Of a DNA stretch of 64,000 nucleotides, positions 23,211-34,101 are shown piece by piece (position 1 is the stretch's first letter; every line of letters starts with the position of its first letter). The translations under genes were made by a program, and so were the position numbers. Origin of the DNA: Acidobacteriota bacterium (lineage in GTDB: Bacteria; Acidobacteriota; Blastocatellia; UBA7656); assembly GCA_038040455.1 (NCBI GenBank), contig JBBPIH010000039.1, positions 4,998 to 68,997 on the forward strand. Direction: 5' to 3'. The notes under the pieces were generated by a model that worked only from the letters and a program-made list of their open reading frames with translations, was not told the DNA's origin and did no database searches.

Positions 23211-24755
23211 CTACATCGGAAGCCGCAGTCGAGCTTCGCACCCGTGTGCGTTTTGCCGGTTCTCGAGTGTCAGAGTCCCCCCGTGCGCCTCTGCGATCTG
23301 GCGGCTCAACACAAGGCCGATTCCCGAGCCGCCGGGTTTGGTAGTGAAGAAGGGAACGAACAGGTTGCTGGTATTTGAGAGGCCGGGCCCTTCGTCTTCG
23401 ACCCAGACTTCAATTCGCCCTAAGACCCTGCGCCATCCGACTCTAACGCGGCCTCCCGTCTCGAGCGAGGCATCGACGGCGTTGCGGACAAGGTTGATCA
23501 ACAGTTGCTCGAGCTGATCGCCGTCCGCGCGGATTGTGATCTCCGGACCGGCAGACAGTTCGATGGCGACTCGAGTTTCCAGTCCTACGACTCGCTTTAC
23601 CAGCGCGCTGATGCTGAGCGGTTGTAGTCTTGGCAGCGGAAGCCGCGCGAGTCTCGAATAAGCTTCCATAAATCGATTGAGCGAAGCAGCTCTTGCGGCG
23701 ATAACTCCCAGACCGCGGCGCATGTCTTCCTTCCAGTCAGCCGGTTGCGTCTCGCGAGCGACCAAGCTTTCAAGGCTGCCGGCAATCGACTTGATTGGAG
23801 CGAGTGAGTTATTGAGCTCGTGGCCGAGCACACGAACCAGCCGCTGCCATGCTTGACGCTCTTCTTCGCGGAGCGCGCGACTGAGATCAGACAGCACGAG
23901 CAACTGGTGCGGCGCGCCCCGCTCGCGGAAGGTGCTGCGATGCACCTCCCACGGCCCGGCGCCGCCAGCAAATGGCCTCTGAAGCGTGCGAGTGCTTTCG
24001 CCGCTCAGGCAATCGGCAAGCCCGAGATCACCGGCGCTTTTTGCCATCAGCCGCTCGGCAGGTTGAGCCAGGAGGCGTTCACCCGCGCGGTTCACCAGCT
24101 TGAGCTTTTGCTCGCTGTCGAATGCGAAGACGGCAACTTCGATTTCGGCCATCACGGTTCTGAGCAGCGCCGTGGCTTCCAACGCCCCAAGCCGCTGCTC
24201 GCGCAGAATCTGCCCGAGGAAATTCACCTCGAGCATCGCTTCTCCTAGAGCATCGTCGCGAGCCGCACCTCGCGCGCGAATCGAGAAGTCGCCTTCGCGC
24301 AGCGCCGCAAGCAGGTTGGAGAGAGTCTGTAGGGGAAACACCACACGCTCGCGCACGGCGTGAGAGAAGCCAAGCCAGAAGCCGATTATAACGACCGTGA
24401 GGGTCCACTGCACTCTTGCCGGTTGTGGCTCACTCCACAACAAGATCAGGGCAATAAGCACCGCTGGAAATCCCGATGCAAGCGCCATCACGAGTATTCG
24501 GCGATCGTGCTTCGCAGTGAAGTAGCTGCGTGAGGTTTGCGGCGGCATTTTTGCGCGTGAAGCCGCCGGCCGACGCAAGGAGTCCGTATCCGTTGTGGTC
24601 TGTCTGGAAGTTTTCAGTGAAAGCGGTTCCAATTGTGCGTCAATACCGGGCGAGGTAGCCGCGCGATCTTCGTCATCAGCTCGCTCATCGGAGGTACCGC
24701 CGGAGACGAGCGGCGACGCGAGCTTCGGGATGGCTCGTGCTTTGAGGCGCTTCAT
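23211..24755 (-). CDS. sensor histidine kinase (TM, HAMP/PAS-like linker, HisKA, HATPase_c)
   Basis: It has an H-box (HELNNSLAPI) and N, G1 and G2 boxes (NLVRNAVDA, DEGPGL, GGSGIGL). The start ATG at 24755 overlaps the regulator stop (ATGA). Confidence 0.75.
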   Translation of the reverse strand: MKRLKARAIPKLASPLVSGGTSDERADDEDRAATSPGIDAQLEPLSLKTSRQTTTDTDSLRRPAASRAKMPPQTSRSYFTAKHDRRILVMALASGFPAVLIALILLWSEPQPARVQWTLTVVIIGFWLGFSHAVRERVVFPLQTLSNLLAALREGDFSIRARGAARDDALGEAMLEVNFLGQILREQRLGALEATALLRTVMAEIEVAVFAFDSEQKLKLVNRAGERLLAQPAERLMAKSAGDLGLADCLSGESTRTLQRPFAGGAGPWEVHRSTFRERGAPHQLLVLSDLSRALREEERQAWQRLVRVLGHELNNSLAPIKSIAGSLESLVARETQPADWKEDMRRGLGVIAARAASLNRFMEAYSRLARLPLPRLQPLSISALVKRVVGLETRVAIELSAGPEITIRADGDQLEQLLINLVRNAVDASLETGGRVRVGWRRVLGRIEVWVEDEGPGLSNTSNLFVPFFTTKPGGSGIGLVLSRQIAEAHGGTLTLENRQNAHGCEARLRLPM

Positions 24756-26122
24756 AACCCGAACCGTTGAAGCCGTCTGTAGAGAGCGCTGCGGCTGAGA
24801 CCGAGCTTCTCCGCCGCGCGGCTTACGTTGCCGTCGCACTGCGCAAGGGTTCTCTGAATCAAGAAGCCTTCGACCTCTTCCAGGCTCATGTCTTCCAACC
24901 GGCGCGAGACCTCGCGCCCGGACTGGAGGCCCAAGTCCCGAGCCTCCAAAGTGGCTCCCAGCGCCATGAGCACGGCACGCTCGACGGCGTGGTCAAGCTC
25001 GCGTACGTTGCCGGGCCACGCGTGTTTCAACAGGGCCTGCATTGCCGCCGGGTGGAAGCCTTCGAGGTTCTTGCGGTAGCGGCGCTGGTGTTGACGAAGG
25101 AAATGCGTTGCCAGCAGCGGAATATCTTCCCGGCGGTCGCGAAGCGCCGGCAAATGTATCTCGACTGTGTTAAGCCGGAAGAGTAAGTCCTGGCGGAAGC
25201 GGCCGGCTGCGACTTCTTCGCCAAGATCGGCGTTCGTTGCTGAGATTATTCTCACGTCCGAGCGTCGCGTCTTTGAAGAGCCCACGCGCTCAAACTCGCC
25301 CGTCTCGAGCACGCGCAGGAGCTTCGGCTGATGCTTTATCGGAAGGTTGGCGATCTCGTCCAAAAACAGCGTGCCGCCCTCAGCCATCTCAAACCGCCCA
25401 ACGCGATCCGCCTTTGCATCGGTGAACGCGCCTTTGACGTGGCCGAACATTTCGCTCTCAAACACGCCCTCGGAAAGTCCACCTACATTGGCGGTGACCA
25501 TCGGCTTTGAAGTCCGGCTGGACATGACGTGAAGCGTCTGAGCGACGACTCCCTTACCGGTGCCGTTCTCGCCGGTAATTAGAACGTTTGCGTCGGAAGC
25601 GCCGACGCGTTCGACTATCTGAAGCACCGGCTGCATGGCTGGAGACTCGGCGATGAGTTTGGGTTTTCCCTCGTCGCGAAGTATGCGGTTCTCGGCCTCT
25701 AACCGCTGGCCCCTTCTTAACGCCTGACCGAGTTCTGCTTGAGTGTGTAGGATGGTCAGCAGTCTCGCGTTATCCCACGGCTTCTGGATAAAGTCGCTCG
25801 CACCGCGGCGCATAGCCTCGACCGCGATGTCCACGCTGCTCCAGGCGGTCATCACAACGACCGGCAGAGTGCTGTCGAGCTTTTGAATCCGCGTGAGCAT
25901 ATCCAGGCCTTCCTGCCCTGACGTCGTGTCACGCGTGTAGTTGAGGTCCATCAAAAGAACGTTGAAGTCCCGCTCCTCGATCGCCTTGATGATATCGCCG
26001 GGCTTCTTGACCGTTTCAATTTGGTATCGTTCGGATTTTAGCAGCAGACGAAGCGCCTCCAGGACGTCCGGCTGATCGTCGGCAATCAACACTCTGGGTG
26101 TGAATGATTCGAGCGCTTTCAT
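24752..26122 (-). CDS. sigma-54-dependent response regulator (REC-AAA+-Fis HTH, NtrC/NtrX family)
   Basis: It has a REC domain (LIADDQ...D), Walker A (GENGTGKG), the GAFTDA sigma-54 interaction motif and a C-terminal HTH. Confidence 0.85.
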
Positions 26123-26420: not shown

Positions 26421-27161
26421 CTAAACCTTCTCAAAACCGCTTTCTTGCATCTCGTGCTCCGCCTTGGGCTCGTGCTCCTCGTCGACCACGCGGCCATCAA
26501 ACAAGTGCACTTGCCGGTCGGCGTGACGCGCGTAGCGAGGATCGTGCGTGACCATGCACACGGTCGCGCCCTGGCCATGCAACTCGCGCAGCAGCTCCAT
26601 CACCGCTTCGCCGTTTGTAGAGTCGAGGTTTCCAGTGGGCTCATCCGCCAGGAGGATCAGCGGATCGCCGGCTACCGCTCGCGCTACTGCGACGCGCTGC
26701 TGTTGACCGCCGGATAGCTGGCTCGGAAGATGCTTCGCGCGATGGGCCATGCCGACGCGTTCGAGCGCATCCATCACTCTCTTCTTCCGCTCGGCGGCTT
26801 TGGTGCCGCGATAGGTCAGAGGCAGCTCGACATTCTCGAAAACGTTGAGGTCACCGATCAAGTTAAAACTTTGAAAAATGAATCCGACCTCGCGATTTCG
26901 AACTCGCGCGCGTTCCGACAGCGGCAGGTCCGAAACTGGTTTGCCCGACAGCGAGTAGGTTCCGTCGGTGGGCGAATCCAACAAACCGAGAATGGAAAGC
27001 AGCGTTGACTTGCCGCAGCCCGAGGGCCCGGCTATCGAGATGTATTCGCCCTTCTTGATTTCCATATGAATCCCTGACAGGGCGTGGGTCTCAACCTCGT
27101 CGGTGAGAAATACCTTTGTAACACCTTCGAGCCGAAGCAGCGGTTGGTCGCTTGCGCTCAT
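26421..27161 (-). CDS. ABC transporter ATP-binding protein (MacB/LolD-like nucleotide-binding domain only)
   Basis: It has Walker A (GPSGCGKST), the signature LSGGQQQRVAVARA and Walker B (LLADEPTGNLD). It has no TM domain. Confidence 0.8.
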   Translation of the reverse strand: MSASDQPLLRLEGVTKVFLTDEVETHALSGIHMEIKKGEYISIAGPSGCGKSTLLSILGLLDSPTDGTYSLSGKPVSDLPLSERARVRNREVGFIFQSFNLIGDLNVFENVELPLTYRGTKAAERKKRVMDALERVGMAHRAKHLPSQLSGGQQQRVAVARAVAGDPLILLADEPTGNLDSTNGEAVMELLRELHGQGATVCMVTHDPRYARHADRQVHLFDGRVVDEEHEPKAEHEMQESGFEKV

Positions 27162-27199
27162 TTGTTTTCATTCCTCCAAAGTTTAGTAGATCGCGATCG

Positions 27200-28453
27200 T
27201 CAGTTAAGACGGATTCGATCATTGTTATCCCACTGGGTTGTGTCGGAGAGGATCACTATATCACCCTCCTTAAGGCCATCAATAACCTCGATTGTAGTCA
27301 CGGAACCTTTGCCGAGTTTTACTTGAACGCGGCTCGCGCCTGCGCGATCCGGATCGAGCTTGAAGATTCCGATCGTTGCGTTCTCGGATCCGTGAACCGG
27401 GCGATTGACCCAGAGTATGTTATCAAGCTTCTCCAGCTGTATCGTGCCGTCGACGCTCAAGTCGGGGACAGCACCCTTTGGCAGTTCCCCTTCGAGGGAT
27501 GCATCTACGGTGCGGGTGCCATTCTGGACTGAAGGGTCTATCCGAATTACCCTGCCGGCGATTATTCCGTTGCGCGTGTCAACCGACACCGGCTGGCCGA
27601 GTTGAATATCTTTAGCCTGAGTTTCAGAAATCTTGAGCTCCGCCTTGAGCCGCTTGGGGTTCGCTACTCTCGCGAGCTCCTGGCCGAGGGTAACTTGCTG
27701 CCCGACTTGAACTGCGACTGTCTGTAATTCTCCATCGATTCCCGCGCGGACTATCAGCGCGTCAAGTTGTCGGCGCTTGAGCTGCACTGCGTCTCTGAGC
27801 TGGCGAACTTTTTCATCTTCGGCGGCCAGCCTGGCTTTGGCTTCTGCTCGGCTGCCGGCCAGGCGCTTTCGTTCGAGCGTCACTCGATTGTCCAGGTCTT
27901 CTGCTGCGATTTGAGACAACTGCAACTCGAGCTTCGATTTCAAACCTTGCGTGGCGAGGGAATCGTTCACCTCGTATTGCATCTTGGCCTTCTTGAAATC
28001 AGAACTCACCTGGGCCAGCGACGCCTCTTGATCCAGGATCGTCTTATCCATTTGAACCTTCAACGTCGTGAGGTTGGCCCCGGCGCCGCGAAGTTGCGAC
28101 TCCGCATCGACAAACGCTTGTTGTATTTCCGGATTGGTCAACTCCATTAGCACGGTATCGGCTTTGACCTGCGCGCCAGGCTGGACGAGTCTCTTCTCGA
28201 TTCGGCCAGTGCTGATAGCTGGGACATAGCGAATCTCTTCAGGTACAAGCGTGCCTAATCCGCGAACATTGCGAAGCATCGGGCCTCGGGTGACTGTGCC
28301 TTTCCACAGAGTAGCGTCGTCAACGCTGGGAGCGGCAGGTTTCAAACGCGATACGCCGACGGTTATCAGCGCAACAGCTACGACTGCCGTTAGCGCGTAC
28401 AGGATCCTTCGAACTCGACGCTTTTTGGCTGCAGATTTACGCGGTATATCCAT
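27200..28453 (-). CDS. HlyD/MacA-family periplasmic adaptor (membrane fusion protein)
   Basis: It has an N-terminal TM anchor and a long coiled-coil, lipoyl and beta-barrel pattern typical of membrane fusion proteins. Confidence 0.7.
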   Translation of the reverse strand: MDIPRKSAAKKRRVRRILYALTAVVAVALITVGVSRLKPAAPSVDDATLWKGTVTRGPMLRNVRGLGTLVPEEIRYVPAISTGRIEKRLVQPGAQVKADTVLMELTNPEIQQAFVDAESQLRGAGANLTTLKVQMDKTILDQEASLAQVSSDFKKAKMQYEVNDSLATQGLKSKLELQLSQIAAEDLDNRVTLERKRLAGSRAEAKARLAAEDEKVRQLRDAVQLKRRQLDALIVRAGIDGELQTVAVQVGQQVTLGQELARVANPKRLKAELKISETQAKDIQLGQPVSVDTRNGIIAGRVIRIDPSVQNGTRTVDASLEGELPKGAVPDLSVDGTIQLEKLDNILWVNRPVHGSENATIGIFKLDPDRAGASRVQVKLGKGSVTTIEVIDGLKEGDIVILSDTTQWDNNDRIRLN

Positions 28454-28602
28454 GCTTCCTCCAACACCTTCTAAGGAAGTTCCGTGCCATCGGTGCGGCC
28501 CCCTTAACTCTTTCCGTAATTCATCTTAACACAACTGCGACGGTCACTGTAAGCGACCCGGCTTTTCGCTTCTGGGAACCCCGTGTTCAGAAGCGGACAC
28601 AG

Positions 28603-28678
28603 TAGCATAGACTTTAGTCTGTGTCTGGTGATTGCCCTTGTAGCGGAGTTACCCGACACAGACTAAAGTCTATGCTAC
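28603..28678. repeat. palindromic REP-like element, copy C (perfect 24-bp termini)
   Basis: Its termini are GTAGCATAGACTTTAGTCTGTGTC ... GACACAGACTAAAGTCTATGCTAC. Confidence 0.85.
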
Positions 28679-28679
28679 T

Positions 28680-29345
28680 TCAGTCGTTCACCACCCAACC
28701 GTCCCTCAGCTTGATGACCCGGTGCCCGTAAGAGGCATTTACCTCAGAGTGAGTGACCTGAATGATAGTCGTGCCCCCCTCGTTGAGCCTCTTGAACAAC
28801 TCCATGATTTCTTTGCCCTGGTCCGAATGCAGGTTGCCGGTCGGTTCGTCCGCGAGGATCACCTTTGGGTTGGCTATGACCGCCCGCGCGACGCCCACCA
28901 GTTGCTGCTGACCTCCTGATAGCTGAGTCGGATAAAGGTTTCGCTTACCGACAATTTGAAAACGGTCCAGCACGTCGCAGACTGTGCTTTCGCGCTCTGC
29001 TTTCTTAACGTCCCGGTACGACAACGGCACTTCGAGATTCTCGTAGACGGTCATGTGATCGAGCAGATGATAACTCTGAAACACGAAGCCGATGTTCTTA
29101 TTGCGCAACTCCGCTCGCTCCTTCTTGCCGAGCTTGTGGATCGGCTTCTCGAGAAAATCAAACTCGCCGGTCCACGCGCTGTCGTGCATGCCTAGGATGT
29201 GAAGCAGTGTCGACTTGCCCGCGCCCGACGGACCCATTATCGAAACGAACTCTCCCGCTTTGATATCGATGTTAACGCGGCGCAGCACAAACGTCTTGCC
29301 CACGCCCGACTCAAAAAACTTTTCAACGTTGCGTAATGCAATCAT
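28680..29345 (-). CDS. ABC transporter ATP-binding protein (second stand-alone nucleotide-binding domain)
   Basis: It has Walker A (GPSGAGKST), the signature LSGGQQQLVGVARA and Walker B (ILADEPTGNL). Confidence 0.8.
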   Translation of the reverse strand: MIALRNVEKFFESGVGKTFVLRRVNIDIKAGEFVSIMGPSGAGKSTLLHILGMHDSAWTGEFDFLEKPIHKLGKKERAELRNKNIGFVFQSYHLLDHMTVYENLEVPLSYRDVKKAERESTVCDVLDRFQIVGKRNLYPTQLSGGQQQLVGVARAVIANPKVILADEPTGNLHSDQGKEIMELFKRLNEGGTTIIQVTHSEVNASYGHRVIKLRDGWVVND

Positions 29346-30394: not shown

Positions 30395-31282
30395 TTGCCA
30401 GATCAAGGAGAAGTCTTGATGGTTAATGAAAACCCGACCTCCCGCACAGCCCTACTGTTTGACATCGATAATACGCTTACACCTCCCCGGCAAGTACTGA
30501 GAGAATCAATGGCGAACGTGCTAAAACGCCTTTGCCTTCCGTTTCATGTCGTAGCCGGGAGCCATCTTGATATTCTGCAAGAACAGTTTTTTGATCCGCT
30601 TTACGCATTCGGTTTCCGTAAGCAATTCGAAGCCTTCCTCAGCCTAGGTGGCGTTCATTATCGATGCGACTACTCCAAGGGGATGTCTATTGAGGTGGTA
30701 TCAGCATTTGACATGCGCGAATATCTCGGTGATATCGATTATTGCTTCCTAATGGACGTGCTTACGAAGACCCTTGGTTTTGCGACGTTCCGGCTACCCC
30801 CGACTCTTGAGGTTATCGGTGAAACCATAACTTATCGGGGCTCAATGATCAATTTCTGCCCAATCGGGAGAGCCGAACAAGAAAGCACAGAGTACCGGCG
30901 CAATCGAGATAACTTCGTGGAATTCGATCGTGCGTCTAATTACCGGCAAATCATGATGGAGCATTTAAAAGGCGAATTGTCGTCGCTCGTGAAGGACAGG
31001 AAGCTAACAATAGTGTTGGGCGGTCAGACATCGTTCGATATCAGTGTTGCAACTCGCGATAAGACATACGCGGTTCGAACGCTGCTGGACAGAGGGTTCG
31101 AACGGTTGGTCTTTATGGGCGACGCTTTGTTTGATGGCGGCAATGATGCCGCCATACGTGAATTCGCGGAGAACTGGCGTTCGGAGACCCGATGCCCACT
31201 TGAAACAATCCAGGTGAGCGGCTGGGAAGAGACCATCCGGCGACTCTATGAGCTTCAGTTCGTCGCTGAGCACGGTGATTGA
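30395..31282 (+). CDS. HAD-superfamily hydrolase of the eukaryotic-type phosphomannomutase (PMM, HAD-IIB) family
   Basis: It has motif I (LLFDIDNTLTPPRQ), a motif II region (VVAGSHLDILQEQF, compare PMM VGGSDFEKVQEQL), a K-containing block (GGQTSFDISVATRDKTYAV, compare PMM GGQISFDVFP.GWDK.YCL) and motif IV (MGDALFDGGNDAAI). The true start may be at MVNENP (30419). Confidence 0.5.
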   Translation: MPDQGEVLMVNENPTSRTALLFDIDNTLTPPRQVLRESMANVLKRLCLPFHVVAGSHLDILQEQFFDPLYAFGFRKQFEAFLSLGGVHYRCDYSKGMSIEVVSAFDMREYLGDIDYCFLMDVLTKTLGFATFRLPPTLEVIGETITYRGSMINFCPIGRAEQESTEYRRNRDNFVEFDRASNYRQIMMEHLKGELSSLVKDRKLTIVLGGQTSFDISVATRDKTYAVRTLLDRGFERLVFMGDALFDGGNDAAIREFAENWRSETRCPLETIQVSGWEETIRRLYELQFVAEHGD

Positions 31283-31290
31283 TCACACTG

Positions 31291-32322
31291 CTATTCTTTC
31301 AGGCTTTTTAGCAGATCATCGAACCAACCCTGATCTTTTGTGGACAGGCGGTCCATGTGACGAACGTATTGCGGCAATCTCTGAGGGTCAAGTGTCTCTA
31401 TCCCAAGTACAATCACTCGGCTGCTCCCGGTGTTGATTTGTTCGTGAATCCTGGATTCCAACTCGTGCAAACACCAGGGTGAATTGAGGAAACTCGGACT
31501 CAAACACGCAACGAGGTACTTACTGTTGTTCAGCGCTTGGTGTATCTTGGTAACAACTGGAAGCGTGGGTTTCCTCTGTACCTGATACCTCCACACCGAA
31601 AGCCCCTGGTTTTCAAGTCGGTTGGCAATCTGCAGCACGCGCTTTTGATCATGACCGGAGTGGCACAAGAAAGCATCAAATCGCTCGGGAGAGACAATAC
31701 GCCAGTCGCTAACCGCATTTTGAGTCACTTCCACCTTTACCAAGACCTGAAAGTCTTTGTTCCAAGGAATATTTCGGAGTCGTTCATAAAACTCTTCCTG
31801 ACCTAGAAAGAGATCTACTCCCATCTGACCATAAGCTCTTAGTCCCGCAATCACGAATTCAATCTTCTTATTAACGGTCCTCTTGGAGATTAGACAGTAA
31901 TCTTCTCTGATTCTGTCGTCCTGAAAATCAATCTCATACTTTCTTTTGTTCGCGCCGTGTAATATGCGGATTTCGGGATCTGGATCGAAGTGGATCGGAC
32001 AATTCCTTGTGGCAGCGTTTGCAAACGGGTTTGTAGGAGGGCCACCAATCAACACTCTGTGGCAGTCGGGCAATTTTGGCAGTTTATAGGCGAACGCTAC
32101 TTCTACCTTACCAGGGTACGATCTCTCAAGAAGGGAATAAACTCGCATTGCCGAGTATAGATCATCTGGAAACACGTAGTGGTCGAATAGGGGATAGTTT
32201 GCGCATTGCAAGGTGAAGGTATTTCGTGGCCGCTCCTTCCCGGGGACGAAGATCTTTATCTCCTTAGGACGATGACCAAATCCGAAAAACTCTTTTGCAA
32301 GCTTGTAGACCTCACTGTCCAT
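31291..32322 (-). CDS. two-domain protein with an uncharacterised N-terminal domain (about 210 aa) and a C-terminal TIR domain
   Basis: The TIR motifs are FDAFLCHSGHDQ (the betaA (D/F)xFISY-type motif), LVACLSPSFLNSPWCLHELE (the S..WC..EL alphaC motif containing the conserved catalytic-position Glu) and VIVLGIE. Its stop is 9 nt from the convergent PMM-like gene. Its start is overlapped by 11 nt by the NUDIX gene stop. Confidence 0.7.
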   Translation of the reverse strand: MDSEVYKLAKEFFGFGHRPKEIKIFVPGKERPRNTFTLQCANYPLFDHYVFPDDLYSAMRVYSLLERSYPGKVEVAFAYKLPKLPDCHRVLIGGPPTNPFANAATRNCPIHFDPDPEIRILHGANKRKYEIDFQDDRIREDYCLISKRTVNKKIEFVIAGLRAYGQMGVDLFLGQEEFYERLRNIPWNKDFQVLVKVEVTQNAVSDWRIVSPERFDAFLCHSGHDQKRVLQIANRLENQGLSVWRYQVQRKPTLPVVTKIHQALNNSKYLVACLSPSFLNSPWCLHELESRIHEQINTGSSRVIVLGIETLDPQRLPQYVRHMDRLSTKDQGWFDDLLKSLKE

Positions 32323-32836
32323 TTTGCGAGTCCTTTTTCAGGTATTTGTCCAGACCGGAGAGTACCTCAAGGGTGCTTTTGAATTTAGTGCTTGGCAAAT
32401 CCCGCAAGTCGAACCAACCGTAGTCTAGTATCTCTTCTCCGACATCAATTGCATTGGAGACTAGGCTCGCTTTGTAAAAAAGGTTTAAGCAGAATTCTGC
32501 ATTAGGTCCATAAGTATCCACGGATGCTGTCAGAAGTTCTCCGATCTTAACCTCAGCGTTCAGCTCTTCCTTCATTTCCCTGGTCAGACCACGCTCAGGT
32601 GCCTCTCCGTATAGCAGGAATCCCCCCGGCAGATCCCACGTTGAATGTGAGATCGAATCACAAACCATAAGTACTGTATCTTCTTGAAGAATTACCGCGC
32701 ACACGGACGGCTTTGAATTCAGATACATTACCCTCCCACACTCCTGACATCTAGAGCCCGATTCTTGAAGAAGCTCAGAGATCTGCTTGCTCCCACAGAA
32801 CTGACAAAACCGAGCCTTATTATTCGCATACGGCAT
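32312..32836 (-). CDS. NUDIX hydrolase with N-terminal CxxC-x15-CxxC zinc ribbon (NudC-like architecture)
   Basis: It has a zinc ribbon (CQFCGSKQ...CQECGRVMYLNSKPSVCAVIL) followed by a Nudix box (GGFLLYGEAPERGLTREMKEELN, i.e. Gx5Ex7REUxEExGU). It lacks the SQPWPFPxS motif of bona fide NADH pyrophosphatases. Confidence 0.7.
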   Translation of the reverse strand: MPYANNKARFCQFCGSKQISELLQESGSRCQECGRVMYLNSKPSVCAVILQEDTVLMVCDSISHSTWDLPGGFLLYGEAPERGLTREMKEELNAEVKIGELLTASVDTYGPNAEFCLNLFYKASLVSNAIDVGEEILDYGWFDLRDLPSTKFKSTLEVLSGLDKYLKKDSQNGQ

Positions 32837-32940
32837 AGCAGATCTCCCATCCGAGCCTAAACCGCAGACTTCGTCGTGAAGCCTGGCCCTCCAGCAGGTA
32901 AAGTAGCCTCGCGAACAAGTACAGTGCGCTTGGGGAGCGC

Positions 32941-34101
32941 TTAGATCGTCTCTTCTATGACCTGAGCTATGTAGTCGATCTCTTCTTTGCTAATCCCTGA
33001 ATGTACGGGCAGAGATACGCATGTTCCGGAGAAATACCGAGCGCTATTGACTTCGCCTATAAGCCTAAACGGGAGTTGCCCATACACGGGTTGGTGGTCG
33101 ACACAATATGGCCACATGACCCGGGTTTCAATCCCGTGACGGGAAAGTGTCTCTCTCAAACGCTCGCGATATTGAGACAGAATTGTGAATGTAAAGCCAT
33201 TGGATTTGAAACGACTATCCTTATACGCTTCTAACGCCAGGTTCCTCAGCGCGTCTTTCTCAAGGTAGTAACTTATGACCTGGCGACGATTGCTCAGAAT
33301 CTGTTCCTTGCGGCGAATCTGTGAAATGCCTAAGGACGCAGCAAGGTCAGTCAAGCGATAATTGCCGCCGAAAACATCATAAGAGTATTTCTTTCCAGGT
33401 GTCTCACCGTGATTCCTGATTTGTCTAAGCAGAAGCGCCAGATTCTCGTCGTCCGTAACTATTGCGCCGCCTTCACCAGTAGTCAGAGGTTTGGCCGCAT
33501 GAAAACTAAAGATAGCCGCCTTACCAAACGAGCCAGCCGGAGTGCTGTTAGTGTGCGCGAGGAAAGATGAAGCCGCGTCTATCATCAAGATGATTCCTCT
33601 GTCTTCGCACAGACTGGAGATGTCTGACCAATCATTTGCAAAACCGGAATAGTCTATTCCTATCACAGCTCGCGTGCGCGTTGAGATACAGGGTAATACA
33701 GTTTTAGCATCAATCATTCCAGTGTCTCTGCTTATATCAGCGAGAACCGGGAGTGCACCTGACATCGTTACGGCGAAAGGGACGGCAATGAACGACATCG
33801 CCGGTATTATTATTTCACAAGTGTTCGAAACGCCGAGAGCTATCAACAGACACACTAGAGCCGAAGAACCCGAATTCACAGCCACGCAATATTTCCGATT
33901 AGAGTAGAGTGCGACTAGACGTTCAAACTCCTCAACCTTTGCACCCTGCGAGATCCAGTGTGAGTCAAAACATTCCTTCAATGAATCAGAATCTTCCGAG
34001 CAAATGTCTGGATTTGCCCAACTGACTTTGAGCTTGGCTTTCTCCTTCATCGCATCCCTGATCTGTCTTCGGAATCTAGCAACTTGTTCGCTTCGTGGCA
34101 A
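32941..34101 (-). CDS. DegT/DnrJ/EryC1/StrS-family PLP-dependent sugar aminotransferase
   Basis: It has an N-terminal HWISQG..VEEFE block. The PLP-lysine region is FSFHAAKPLTTGEGGAIVTDD. The start may be at 34050 (MKEKAKL). Confidence 0.75.
   Translation of the reverse strand: MPRSEQVARFRRQIRDAMKEKAKLKVSWANPDICSEDSDSLKECFDSHWISQGAKVEEFERLVALYSNRKYCVAVNSGSSALVCLLIALGVSNTCEIIIPAMSFIAVPFAVTMSGALPVLADISRDTGMIDAKTVLPCISTRTRAVIGIDYSGFANDWSDISSLCEDRGIILMIDAASSFLAHTNSTPAGSFGKAAIFSFHAAKPLTTGEGGAIVTDDENLALLLRQIRNHGETPGKKYSYDVFGGNYRLTDLAASLGISQIRRKEQILSNRRQVISYYLEKDALRNLALEAYKDSRFKSNGFTFTILSQYRERLRETLSRHGIETRVMWPYCVDHQPVYGQLPFRLIGEVNSARYFSGTCVSLPVHSGISKEEIDYIAQVIEETI

What the first reader, a model, noticed from the sequence alone, without database searches (positions are those of the whole stretch)
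32312..32836. NudC-architecture NUDIX hydrolase translationally coupled to the TIR gene but lacking the NADH-pyrophosphatase specificity motif
A four-cysteine ribbon (CxxC-x15-CxxC-x-MYLNSKPSVCAVIL) precedes a canonical Nudix box (GGFLLYGEAPERGLTREMKEELN). That is the domain order of NudC, but the SQPWPFPxS motif that defines NAD(H) specificity is absent. Its stop overlaps the TIR start, which implies co-expression. The substrate could therefore be a TIR product (ADPR, a cADPR isomer or an ADPR conjugate) rather than NADH. It could also decap NAD-RNA.
Basis: partly seen in the sequence, partly recalled or inferred. Interest (0 to 1): 0.6.

Follow-up and report, generated by a model that had tools for sequence, protein, structure and literature searches.

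The report
Nudix hydrolase in aminosugar–TIR cassette
This is a real, intact zinc-ribbon Nudix hydrolase, but it is not the NADH-cleaving enzyme NudC: it is a fixed part of a rare gene cassette, not found described in the literature searched, that joins sugar-nucleotide-modifying enzymes to a protein carrying a new domain and a swappable immune-effector-like module, which here is a TIR domain.

Summary
A 174-aa ORF on the minus strand (32312-32836) has a CxxC-x15-CxxC ribbon and an intact Nudix box. It lacks SQPWPFPxS, and its stop overlaps the start of the TIR gene by 11 nt.

The protein fails NudC membership: it has no N-terminal domain and scores 39 bits against a cutoff of 158.

Its conserved partners are not TIR as such. 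In about 15 independent metagenomic loci, its 41-59% identical homologues sit with a perosamine-synthase-like DegT aminotransferase. In most loci they sit directly upstream of a gene encoding a new ~210-aa domain, which I call "X". X is fused to TIR in 7 loci, but to PNP, AAA+, transmembrane or unknown modules in 5 others. In distant relatives X is fused to CBASS/Pycsar-type effector modules.

The accessory genes are of the GDP-sugar type: PMM or PGM, a GMPPB-like transferase, a probable Cj1427-like dehydrogenase (identity from memory) and an IMPase-family phosphatase. In this window the four-gene cassette is a low-GC island.

Best reading (inferred): the Nudix cleaves an NDP-linked amino sugar made by the cassette. 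It thereby makes or clears the ligand that X reads to gate the TIR NADase. I found no description of this cassette in the literature available to me.

The parts
32941..34101 (-). DegT/DnrJ/EryC1-family PLP aminotransferase and first gene of the cassette. The start is probably at 34050, because the NCBI-annotated protein is 369 aa.
   Evidence: Pfam PF01041, E 4e-84. The best solved relative is GDP-perosamine synthase 3bn1, E 1.4e-50. It scores below every NCBIfam equivalog cutoff.
32837..32940 (-). 104-bp spacer between DegT and Nudix. It is GC-rich (0.60) within a low-GC cassette. Six related loci carry an IMPase-family gene at this position.
   Evidence: gene orders. No Rfam match.
32312..32836 (-). 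The finding itself: a 174-aa zinc-ribbon Nudix hydrolase.
32738..32806 (-). Four-cysteine zinc ribbon (C11, C14, C30, C33).
   Evidence: Read directly from the sequence. C30 and C33 are invariant and C11 and C14 are at least 90% conserved in 22 homologues. Weak Pfam DZR hit. The region superposes on the NudC and 3cng ribbons.
32555..32623 (-). Nudix box G72..A94, with catalytic residues R86, E87, E90 and E91.
   Evidence: Read directly from the sequence. G72, E78, R86, E87, E90 and E91 are invariant in the family.
32312..32322 (-). 11-nt overlap (ATGGACAGTGA) between the Nudix stop and the X::TIR start.
   Evidence: In relatives the two genes are 6-40 nt apart rather than overlapping.
31684..32322 (-). 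'X' domain, residues 1-213 of the TIR protein. It is a new conserved domain with motifs NYP, DD, GGPxTN, DY and GLRAYGQ.
   Evidence: No Pfam hit. 13-sequence alignment A1. AF2 model with pLDDT 89.4 and pTM 0.88. No PDB or viral fold match at E<=1e-3. 327 representatives in 1.84 billion proteins.
31351..31683 (-). TIR domain, residues 214-324. The catalytic-position Glu E287 (WCLHE) is encoded at 31462-31464.
   Evidence: Pfam TIR_2, E 4.5e-20. PDB TIR hits. The Glu is conserved in 19 of 19 TIR-bearing X proteins.
30395..31282 (+). Eukaryote-type phosphomannomutase-like HAD-IIB enzyme. It is convergent with X::TIR, and the two stop codons are 8 nt apart.
   Evidence: Pfam PMM, E 5.8e-21. The best PDB hits are phosphomannomutases. 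It is 69% identical to the gene at the same position in L007 and L015, and about 78% to that in L011. It has the same low GC as the rest of the cassette.

Best explanation
The ORF encodes a catalytically intact zinc-ribbon Nudix pyrophosphohydrolase of a small, distinct family. It is not NudC.

It is one enzyme of a compact cassette that was probably acquired horizontally. In this window the cassette reads DegT aminotransferase -> Nudix -> X::TIR, with a convergent PMM-type enzyme.

Across relatives, the aminotransferase, the Nudix and the new X domain stay constant. The module fused to X is exchanged: TIR, PNP, AAA+ or transmembrane, and in remote relatives CBASS-type metallophosphoesterase and Pycsar-type TIR. 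The accessory enzymes are of the GDP-sugar type: phosphomannomutase or PGM, a GMPPB-like guanylyltransferase, an SDR whose best solved match I take (from memory) to be Cj1427, a C4-dehydrogenase, and an IMPase-family phosphatase.

My reading has four steps:
1. The cassette enzymes build an NDP-linked (most likely GDP-linked) 4-amino sugar.
2. The Nudix cleaves its pyrophosphate bond to give NMP plus amino-sugar-1-phosphate. Where an IMPase is present, it then removes the phosphate.
3. This step either produces or clears the small molecule that the X domain binds.
4. X thereby gates the attached effector, here a TIR NADase.

Shown: gene order, synteny, domain identities, catalytic residues, module swapping and the GC island. 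Inferred: the substrate, ligand sensing by X, and any immune role.
For: (1) The protein is a real and active-looking enzyme. The Nudix box and four cysteines are conserved in 22 homologues, together with family-specific invariants S41, P43, W67, D68, D107, Y109, L117, N118, W141 and P148.

(2) Synteny is conserved:
- DegT-IMPase-Nudix-TM::X (a transmembrane module fused to X) in L001 and L003.
- PGM-DegT-IMPase-Nudix-X::AAA in L004.
- PGM-DegT-IMPase-Nudix-X::TIR in L005.
- NTP_transferase-DegT-Nudix-X::TIR with a convergent PMM in L007 and L015; L022 shows the same order up to X, where its contig ends.
- DegT-Nudix-PNP::X-unknown with a convergent PMM, then Fpg, in L011. This is syntenic with L007 and L015, so it is an effector swap at one locus.

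(3) DegT co-varies with the Nudix. Its closest homologues (49-66% identity, only 28 clusters) lie on contigs of the same length as the Nudix/X contigs, which I take to be the same contigs.

(4) The enzymes are of the GDP-sugar type:
- DegT best matches GDP-perosamine synthase.
- The NTP_transferase best matches human GMPPB, E 8.5e-53.
- PMM best matches phosphomannomutases.
- The L004 SDR matches 6vo6 at E 1.3e-91. From my own knowledge 6vo6 is Cj1427. The function of Cj1427 as a GDP-heptose C4-dehydrogenase is given in PMC10680097.

(5) Remote X proteins sit in analogous cassettes. L026 and L027 read PGM-GFO_IDH_MocA-DegT-PNP::X-IMPase-GNAT-IMPase, and L026 continues with a second PGM. L025 reads CAP12-TIR::X-GFO_IDH_MocA-DegT-glpX-like phosphatase. 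L013 reads Epimerase-IMPase-IMPase-DegT-SDR-X::Metallophos.

(6) The modules fused to X hit PADLOC CBASS/Pycsar effector models: PN-superfamily 1.6e-23, 'Endonuclease' 2e-36, TIR 2e-22 and PycTIR 8e-14. The fusion census of 142 representatives gives PNP 13, TIR_2 11, CAP12-TIR 4, Metallophos 3, Nuc_deoxyrib_tr 2 and EAD7 1.

(7) All four cassette genes have GC 0.47-0.50, against 0.554 for the rest of the window.

(8) There is a biochemical precedent for a Nudix working with a DegT-type aminotransferase and a monophosphatase on a nucleotide-linked sugar. This is Pur10/Pur4/Pur7/Pur3 and AdgB-E (PMC11641026, PMC9239236).
Against: - No substrate was tested, and Nudix specificity cannot be read from sequence.
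- The window cassette has no oxidoreductase, no nucleotidyltransferase and no IMPase within 64 kb. The keto substrate for DegT would therefore have to come from elsewhere in the genome.
- Ligand binding by X is purely architectural inference. X has no solved relative. It could instead be an enzyme or a scaffold.
- The defence-island context is weak. Nothing defence-like lies near the cassette in this window, and only L023 has a STAND-TIR neighbour.
- X is absent from the phage and plasmid collections.
- TIR is still the most common partner, in 7 of 12 loci where the fused module could be read. A distant Nudix homologue lies next to an FRG domain, which PMC9503650 describes as a possible NADase. 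A link to NAD chemistry therefore remains possible.
- The number of independent loci is small (about 15), and they are mostly from Acidobacteriota-like soil and sediment metagenomes.
Confidence: 0.45

Rival explanations
1. The Nudix hydrolyses a product of the co-translated TIR domain (ADPR, a cADPR isomer or an ADPR conjugate). It would either process it into a signal or clear it to keep the system off.

A hybrid version is also possible. TIR could transfer ADP-ribose onto the amine made by DegT, as Thoeris II makes His-ADPR, and the Nudix would then trim the conjugate.
For: - The 11-nt overlap and close spacing with X::TIR.
- The TIR catalytic Glu is conserved in 19 of 19 proteins.
- TIR is the commonest partner.
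- The distant homologue P0016 lies beside an FRG protein. The FRG domain is described as a possible NADase in PMC9503650.
- Structurally, the nearest solved Nudix enzymes include NudC bound to NAD, and by sequence an ADPR pyrophosphatase.
Against: - The Nudix is retained at 54-58% identity, with all invariant residues, where TIR is replaced by AAA+, transmembrane, PNP or unknown modules.
- DegT linkage (12 of 12 loci) is tighter than TIR linkage (7 of 12 loci where the fused module could be read).
- In L023 the Nudix is two genes away from X::TIR and on the opposite strand.
- The remote X::TIR-type cassette L025 shows no Nudix in the 5.1 kb available.
Confidence: 0.2
2. This is an ordinary cell-envelope glycan pathway of the GDP-perosamine type. 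The Nudix would be a Gmm/NudD-like regulator of the GDP-sugar pool. X::TIR would be an unrelated or merely regulatory neighbour.
For: The enzymes are GDP-sugar-like. Some source databases name the DegT homologues 'perosamine synthetase'. X relatives weakly hit the S-layer outer-domain family PF05124.
Against: - No glycosyltransferase, flippase or polymerase gene appears in any cassette.
- The X gene is present in 13 of 15 loci despite changing flanks, and it co-varies with the enzymes.
- The modules fused to X are of the immune-effector type.
- The whole unit, including X::TIR, shares one GC anomaly.
Confidence: 0.15
3. This is a Pur7/AdgD-like role. The cassette would make a 3'-amino-3'-deoxynucleotide or nucleoside, a chain-terminating antimetabolite. 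The Nudix would convert the modified NTP to NMP.
For: The same enzyme families act together in puromycin and 3'-amino-3'-deoxyguanosine biosynthesis. There, an oxidoreductase, an aminotransferase, a Nudix and a monophosphatase suffice, as shown by heterologous expression (PMC11641026, PMC9239236). Related loci carry an IMPase, or GFO_IDH_MocA, which is the family I expect for Pur10.
Against: - No locus seen has all four enzymes.
- The window lacks both the oxidoreductase and the phosphatase.
- Phosphohexomutases, the GMPPB-like transferase and the Cj1427-like SDR have no role in that pathway.
Confidence: 0.12
4. This is a housekeeping NudC-like NAD(H) pyrophosphatase or NAD-RNA decapping enzyme, or a generic MutT/RppH-type cleanser, that is adjacent to TIR by chance.
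For: The top Foldseek hits are NudC (2e-11). A weak NCBIfam NudC hit has E 5.9e-10. BdRppH is the second-best sequence match.
Against: - The protein fails four NudC criteria: no N-terminal domain, no SQPWPFPxS, 39 bits against a cutoff of 158, and 20% identity.
- The family is tiny (18 clusters) and always sits in the cassette, which is unlike a housekeeping gene.
Confidence: 0.04

Closest known systems
NudC (E. coli NADH pyrophosphatase / NAD-RNA decapping enzyme; PDB 5iw4, 5iw5, 1vk6)
   Same: Both have a four-Cys zinc ribbon directly followed by a Nudix fold. NudC is the top structural match (Foldseek 2e-11). The sequence alignment spans ribbon plus Nudix.
   Different: - It lacks the NudC N-terminal domain (174 aa against 257 aa).
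- SQPWPFPxS is replaced by a family-specific VDxYG...LNLFY stretch.
- Identity is 20%, and NF001299 scores 39 bits against a cutoff of 158.
- The genomic context is entirely different.
Nitrosomonas europaea zinc-ribbon Nudix hydrolase (PDB 3cng; listed only as 'NUDIX hydrolase', no specific function named)
   Same: Same length class (189 aa) and the same ribbon+Nudix layout without a NudC N-terminal domain. It aligns end to end.
   Different: Only 25% identical. Its name in the PDB gives no specific function, and the family-specific invariants are not shared.
Pur7 / AdgD Nudix hydrolases of 3'-amino-3'-deoxynucleoside pathways (puromycin, A201A, cystocin, ADG)
   Same: In both cases a Nudix is operonic with a DegT-type aminotransferase and, in relatives, an IMPase-like monophosphatase. 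Together they act on a nucleotide-linked sugar ring (PMC11641026, PMC9239236).
   Different: No Pur10-type oxidoreductase is present in the window. Extra GDP-sugar-type enzymes are present. The sequence relationship was not testable here. The cassette is coupled to an X::effector protein rather than to antibiotic tailoring and resistance genes.
Sensor-effector proteins of CBASS, Pycsar and Thoeris (TIR-SAVED/Cap12, PycTIR, PNP and phosphoesterase effectors)
   Same: The modules fused to X are homologous to those effector modules. They are swapped on a constant non-catalytic domain, as in those systems. TIR carries the catalytic Glu.
   Different: - The constant domain X is not SAVED, STING, CARF, SLOG or cNMP-binding. 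It has no Pfam hit and no PDB fold match.
- No CD-NTase, cyclase or ThsA was seen in any locus.
- The associated enzymes are of the sugar-nucleotide type.
GDP-perosamine / GDP-heptose modification pathways (Per, Cj1427, GMPPB/ManC, PMM; Gmm/NudD Nudix of colanic-acid clusters)
   Same: The best solved relatives of DegT, the NTP_transferase, PMM and the L004 SDR all come from these pathways. A Nudix acting on a GDP-sugar has a precedent, from my own knowledge, in Gmm/NudD.
   Different: No glycosyltransferases or export genes are present. DegT scores below every equivalog cutoff. The dehydratase or dehydrogenase is absent from this window. Homology to Gmm was not tested.

Membership tests
Nudix superfamily | Nudix fold and a GX5EX7REUXEEXGU box with the catalytic Glu residues | tested here: met
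   PF00293 scores 60.6 bits against a cutoff of 21.1. Box residues G72, E78, R86, E87, E90 and E91 are invariant, and the last G is N. The AF2 model matches more than 500 Nudix chains.
NudC (NADH pyrophosphatase) | N-terminal NudC domain (~95 aa) preceding the zinc ribbon | tested here: not met
   The protein is 174 aa. The NF001299 alignment covers only profile positions 100-240 of 263. No Pfam domain lies N-terminal of the ribbon.
NudC (NADH pyrophosphatase) | Four-cysteine zinc-binding motif between the N-terminal domain and the Nudix domain | tested here: met
   C11, C14, C30 and C33. They are conserved in the family and superpose on the NudC ribbon.
NudC (NADH pyrophosphatase) | SQPWPFPxS motif downstream of the Nudix box | tested here: not met
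   NudC's 'sqpwpfpqs' stretch lies opposite 'asvdtygpnaef'. The family instead conserves D107, Y109, L117 and N118.
NudC (NADH pyrophosphatase) | Score at or above the curated equivalog cutoff | tested here: not met
   NF001299 scores 39 bits against a cutoff of 158.
NudC (NADH pyrophosphatase) | Hydrolysis of NAD(H) or NAD-capped RNA | not testable with these tools
   This needs an enzyme assay.
Thoeris | ThsB-type TIR protein | tested here: inconclusive
   Several PADLOC ThsB models hit the TIR region only weakly (best E 1.1e-07). Other TIR models score better, for example PDC-S66 at 5.5e-12.
Thoeris | ThsA effector (SIR2 or Macro/TM with a SLOG sensor) encoded alongside | tested here: not met
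   No such hit was found among the 4 cassette proteins or among 10 of the larger ORFs (>=300 aa) between 13.7 and 49.2 kb of the window. None appears in the Pfam lists of the related loci.
CBASS / Pycsar | CD-NTase or pyrimidine cyclase that makes the signal | tested here: not met
   No CD-NTase or cyclase family is listed in any locus. The cassette proteins give no PADLOC cyclase hit.
CBASS / Pycsar | Effector protein made of a known nucleotide sensor (SAVED, STING, cNMP-binding) plus an effector module | tested here: not met
   The effector modules are homologous. The partner domain X, however, has no Pfam hit and no PDB fold match at E<=1e-3.
Pur7/AdgD-type 3'-aminonucleoside module | Four enzymes together: Pur10-type oxidoreductase, DegT-type aminotransferase, Nudix and IMPase-like monophosphatase | tested here: not met
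   The window has only the aminotransferase and the Nudix. Relatives add an IMPase, or GFO_IDH_MocA without a Nudix. No locus seen has all four.
Pur7/AdgD-type 3'-aminonucleoside module | Sequence orthology of the Nudix to Pur7 or AdgD | not testable with these tools
   The Pur and Adg sequences are not in any reachable collection. The link rests only on the papers PMC11641026 and PMC9239236.
GDP-perosamine-type sugar pathway | PMM, GDP-sugar pyrophosphorylase, C4-oxidising SDR and perosamine-synthase-like aminotransferase | tested here: inconclusive
   The window has PMM and the aminotransferase only. The transferase is present in L007, L015 and L022. SDR enzymes are present in L003, L004, L013, L023 and L024.
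GDP-perosamine-type sugar pathway | Glycosyltransferase, export or polymerase genes that use the sugar | tested here: not met
   None appears within any cassette. The only glycosyltransferase seen lies about 8 kb away in L005, in a separate cluster.

The most novel reading that the evidence does not exclude
The cassette is a previously unrecognised kind of signal-based conflict system. In it, the messenger is not a cyclic nucleotide or an NAD derivative. It is an amino-sugar nucleotide, or the amino-sugar phosphate released from it.

The messenger would be made by a DegT aminotransferase with mutase, transferase and dehydrogenase helpers. It would be turned over by the zinc-ribbon Nudix, with or without an IMPase. 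It would be read by a new sensor fold (X) that switches on interchangeable effectors: TIR, PNP, phosphoesterase, AAA+ or membrane modules.
Probability: 0.2. Interest if true: 0.9.

Novelty: new variant of a known kind. Interest (0 to 1): 0.68.

Why it matters
The Nudix on its own is a new member of a very large superfamily and would be of modest interest. The value lies in what it leads to.

It marks a rare, tightly conserved cassette that couples sugar-nucleotide chemistry to a new domain carrying swappable CBASS-, Pycsar- and Thoeris-type effector modules. I found no paper describing it among those I could search.

If X senses a product of the cassette, this would add a new chemical class of messenger and a new sensor fold to bacterial signalling and immunity. 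It would also give a defined and testable role to a Nudix enzyme as the maker or off-switch of that messenger.

If the rival reading (an ADPR conjugate) is right instead, it would tie TIR chemistry to an amine acceptor made in the same operon.

Either way, the system is small (3-6 genes), and each inferred step can be tested in vitro: Nudix specificity, ligand binding by X, and TIR NADase activation.

Tried and rejected
- **NudC orthology:** rejected (see the membership table).
- **Thoeris or CBASS membership:** rejected, because no ThsA, CD-NTase or cyclase was seen in any locus (and the Pfam lists).
- **X in mobile elements:** no hit in plasmids, phages or IMG/VR.
- **Genome collection scan:** only one locus was found, the same Pyrinomonadaceae MAG as L007. 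Taxonomic breadth therefore stays poorly known.
- **Close Nudix homologues on plasmids:** only matches at 33% identity or less.
- **FRG neighbour of a distant Nudix homologue:** it does not contain X (hhalign probability 0.2%).
- **RNA element in the spacer or cassette:** no Rfam match at E<=1. The promoter and terminator scans were no better than shuffles.
- **Defence-island context in the window:** none was found. The only PADLOC hit among the 10 other large window ORFs scanned is a generic sigma-54-type AAA+ activator.
- **Literature:** searches for TIR with Nudix, aminotransferase, IMPase or sugar-nucleotide defence found no description of the cassette. The 2015 NAR survey of nucleotide-centric conflict systems was not held, so I could not check it.
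Full report
**1. The observation**

The ORF lies on the minus strand at 32312-32836 and encodes 174 aa. It has C11-x2-C14-x15-C30-x2-C33. Three residues later comes MYLNSKPSVCAVIL. The Nudix box is G72-FLLYG-E78-APERGLT-R86-E87-M-K-E90-E91-L-N-A.

Pfam NUDIX scores 60.6 bits, E 2e-16. A 100% identical protein is annotated in an Acidobacteriota MAG. Seventeen further clusters (41-62% identity; 41-59% for those covering most of the query) conserve the cysteines, the box and a family signature: S41, P43, W67, D68, D107, Y109, L117, N118, W141 and P148.

The stop of this gene overlaps the ATG of the next gene (31291-32322, minus strand) by 11 nt, ATGGACAGTGA. An AAGGA lies 9 nt upstream of that ATG. 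Homologues align from that Met.

**2. It is not NudC**

- The NCBIfam NudC model scores 39 bits against a cutoff of 158. It aligns only to profile positions 100-240 of 263, so the N-terminal domain is missing.
- In the alignment with E. coli NudC, the SQPWPFPQS stretch lies opposite ASVDTYGPNAEF.
- The AF2 model has pLDDT 86.8. It does find NudC first (2e-11, 20% identity). It finds the short Nitrosomonas ribbon-Nudix 3cng equally well (5e-11, 25% identity). Dozens of other Nudix enzymes follow within three orders of magnitude.

'NudC architecture' is therefore true only for the ribbon+Nudix part.

**3. What the neighbour is**

The downstream protein (343 aa) has a TIR domain at residues 214-324 (TIR_2, E 4.5e-20). 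Its catalytic-position Glu is E287 in WCLHE. This matches the S-x-W-C-L-x-E-L pattern of active plant TIRs, which I know from memory. The Glu is conserved in 19 of 19 TIR-bearing relatives.

Residues 1-213 have no Pfam hit. I call this region X.

- X is highly conserved, with motifs NYP, DD, GGPxTN, DY and GLRAYGQ.
- It models confidently, with pLDDT 89.4 and pTM 0.88.
- It has no convincing solved or viral structural relative.
- A profile search of 1.84 billion representatives finds only 327 relatives, 28 of them at E<=1e-30.

**4. Comparative genomics changes the picture**

Contexts of the Nudix homologues:

| Locus | Gene order |
|---|---|
| L001/L002 | DegT-IMPase-Nudix-TM::X (transmembrane module fused to X) |
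| L003 | DegT-IMPase-Nudix-TM::X-Epimerase |
| L004 | PGM-DegT-IMPase-Nudix-X::AAA+, convergent Epimerase |
| L005/L006 | 846-aa membrane protein-PGM-DegT-IMPase-Nudix-X::TIR |
| L007/L008 (Pyrinomonadaceae MAG), L015 | NTP_transferase-DegT-Nudix-X::TIR, convergent PMM, then Fpg |
| L022 | NTP_transferase-DegT-Nudix-X (contig ends inside X) |
| L011/L012 | DegT-Nudix-PNP::X-481-aa protein, convergent PMM, then Fpg (DegT, PMM and Fpg seen in L011 only) |
| L017, L019, L020 | (DegT-IMPase-)Nudix-X::TIR |
| L024 | Nudix-X+unknown tail-Epimerase |
| L023 | PMM-Epimerase-X::TIR-unknown-DegT, then Nudix on the opposite strand |
| L028 | FRG protein (opposite strand), Nudix, methyltransferase (opposite strand), DegT; no X in 4.5 kb |

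L011 is syntenic with L007 and L015. Only the module fused to X differs, so this is an effector swap at one locus.

- DegT is present in 12 of 12 loci where upstream DNA exists.
- X is present in 13 of 15 loci.
- TIR is present in 7 of the 12 loci where the fused module could be read.
- DegT's own closest homologues form only 28 clusters at E<=1e-60 (49-66% identity). They lie on contigs of the same length as the Nudix/X contigs, which I take to be the same contigs (71046, 7901, 5024, 23708, 24987, 75884, 2235 and 2967 nt).
- In the window, the four genes PMM, X::TIR, Nudix and DegT have GC 0.47-0.50. The rest of the window has 0.554.

The unit is therefore the cassette, not a Nudix-TIR pair.

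**5. Nature of the enzymes**

- DegT best matches GDP-perosamine synthase (3bn1, E 1.4e-50).
- The NTP_transferase of L007 best matches human GMPPB (E 8.5e-53).
- The HAD enzyme best matches eukaryotic phosphomannomutases.
- The L004 epimerase-family enzyme matches 6vo6 at E 1.3e-91. From memory this entry is Cj1427. Cj1427 is the GDP-heptose C4-dehydrogenase that makes a 4-keto GDP-sugar (function per PMC10680097).
- The IMPase best matches histidinol-phosphatase and inositol monophosphatases.

Remote X proteins sit in analogous cassettes:
- L026/L027: PGM-GFO_IDH_MocA-DegT-PNP::X-IMPase-GNAT-IMPase, and L026 continues with a second PGM.
- L025: CAP12-TIR::X-GFO_IDH_MocA-DegT-glpX-like phosphatase.
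- L013: Epimerase-IMPase-IMPase-DegT-SDR-X::Metallophos-...-PF01676 mutase.

No glycosyltransferase or export gene occurs in any cassette.

The enzyme logic is oxidise, transaminate, cleave the pyrophosphate, dephosphorylate. This also parallels the proven Pur10/Pur4/Pur7/Pur3 and AdgB-E module for 3'-amino-3'-deoxynucleosides (PMC11641026; PMC9239236). However, no locus here has all four enzymes, and the mutase and guanylyltransferase genes point to GDP-sugars.

**6. Nature of X**

In 142 representatives, X is fused as follows: PNP_UDP_1 (13), TIR_2 (11), CAP12/Pycsar TIR (4), Metallophos (3), Nuc_deoxyrib_tr (2), and EAD7, Rhodanese, RadC and AAA (1 each). Eighteen weakly hit PF05124, the S-layer outer domain.

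The fused modules hit PADLOC CBASS/Pycsar effector models: PN-superfamily 1.6e-23, 'Endonuclease' 2e-36, TIR 2e-22 and PycTIR 8e-14.

X therefore sits where SAVED, STING or cNMP-binding domains sit in known sensor-effector proteins. Yet no CD-NTase, cyclase or ThsA was seen in any locus.

**7. Best explanation (confidence 0.45)**

The Nudix is the pyrophosphatase step of a dedicated NDP-(probably GDP-)amino-sugar pathway. It makes or clears the small molecule that X reads to gate the TIR NADase.

- Shown: synteny, co-variation, domain identities, intact catalytic residues, module swapping and the GC island.
- Inferred: the substrate, ligand sensing by X, and any role in conflict.

Weak points:
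- The window lacks an oxidoreductase, a transferase and an IMPase.
- There is no defence-island context in this window.
- There are few independent loci.
- There is no biochemistry.

**8. Rivals**

- (a) The Nudix acts on a TIR product or an ADPR-amine conjugate: 0.20.
- (b) An ordinary GDP-perosamine-type glycan pathway with an incidental X::TIR: 0.15.
- (c) A Pur7-like 3'-aminonucleotide pathway: 0.12.
- (d) A NudC- or RppH-like housekeeping enzyme: 0.04.

**9. Novelty**

The Nudix alone is a new member of a known kind. The cassette, with a new sensor-position domain coupled to sugar-nucleotide enzymes, is at least a new variant of sensor-effector systems.

I found no description of it in the searchable literature. 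One key survey, the 2015 NAR paper, could not be checked.

The boldest reading not excluded is that an amino-sugar nucleotide serves as an immune messenger. I give it about 0.2.

Noticed in passing
window 30395-34101: The four cassette genes form a low-GC island. PMM has GC 0.50, X::TIR 0.473, Nudix 0.47 and DegT 0.48, against 0.554 for the rest of the window. The flanking genes are at 0.53-0.60. This suggests horizontal acquisition as one unit.
   Followed up: yes
window 32837-32940: The 104-bp DegT-Nudix spacer is GC-rich (0.60), unlike the genes around it. It sits where six related loci carry an IMPase gene. By eye there is a short hairpin, GCGCT-CCCCA-AGCGC, right after the DegT stop. There is no Rfam match.
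   Followed up: partly
window 34050-34101: The start of DegT is uncertain. The longest ORF starts at TTG 34101 (386 aa). The NCBI-annotated identical protein is 369 aa, which implies ATG 34050, and homologue alignments also begin at about that point.
   Followed up: partly
L023:11075-12631 (minus strand): A 518-aa protein combining a STAND NTPase with a CAP12/Pycsar-type TIR lies directly beside the cassette's Nudix gene. It is the only clear defence-type neighbour seen in any locus.
   Followed up: partly
L028:272-1132 (minus strand); also L029: A distant Nudix homologue (P0016) lies next to an FRG-domain protein (PADLOC PDC-S15, E 6e-39), a methyltransferase and DegT. No X domain is present within the 4.5-kb contig. 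The FRG protein has no X domain by hhalign.
   Followed up: partly
L005:1522-4062: An 846-aa protein with many C-terminal transmembrane segments heads the PGM-DegT-IMPase-Nudix-X::TIR operon. Near its N-terminus is a GGGFAGQVYRVKV stretch that resembles a kinase glycine loop. It has no Pfam or PADLOC hit.
   Followed up: no
L011:2692-4137: A 481-aa gene follows PNP::X, overlapping its end. It has only weak ROK and type III pantothenate kinase (ASKHA-fold) hits, E about 3e-3. It may be a sugar kinase that accompanies the PNP variant.
   Followed up: no
related loci L001-L027: IMPase and the GMPPB-like NTP_transferase were never seen in the same cassette. IMPase variants use PGM_PMM-type mutases, and transferase variants use the HAD-type PMM. 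The sample is small.
   Followed up: no
X-domain relatives P0079, P0084, P0100, P0112 (about 240 aa): A set of short proteins weakly matches both the X profile and Pfam PF05124 (S-layer outer domain). Foldseek also lists the Methanococcus voltae S-layer anchoring domain 9fsa. X may therefore derive from an S-layer-like or glycan-associated fold.
   Followed up: partly
window 24752-26122 (minus strand): A 456-aa protein matches the PADLOC RtcR/PspF-type AAA+/HTH model (1e-95). It looks like a generic sigma-54-type activator, next to ABC-transporter and HlyD-like genes at 26421-29345. It is not part of the cassette.
   Followed up: no
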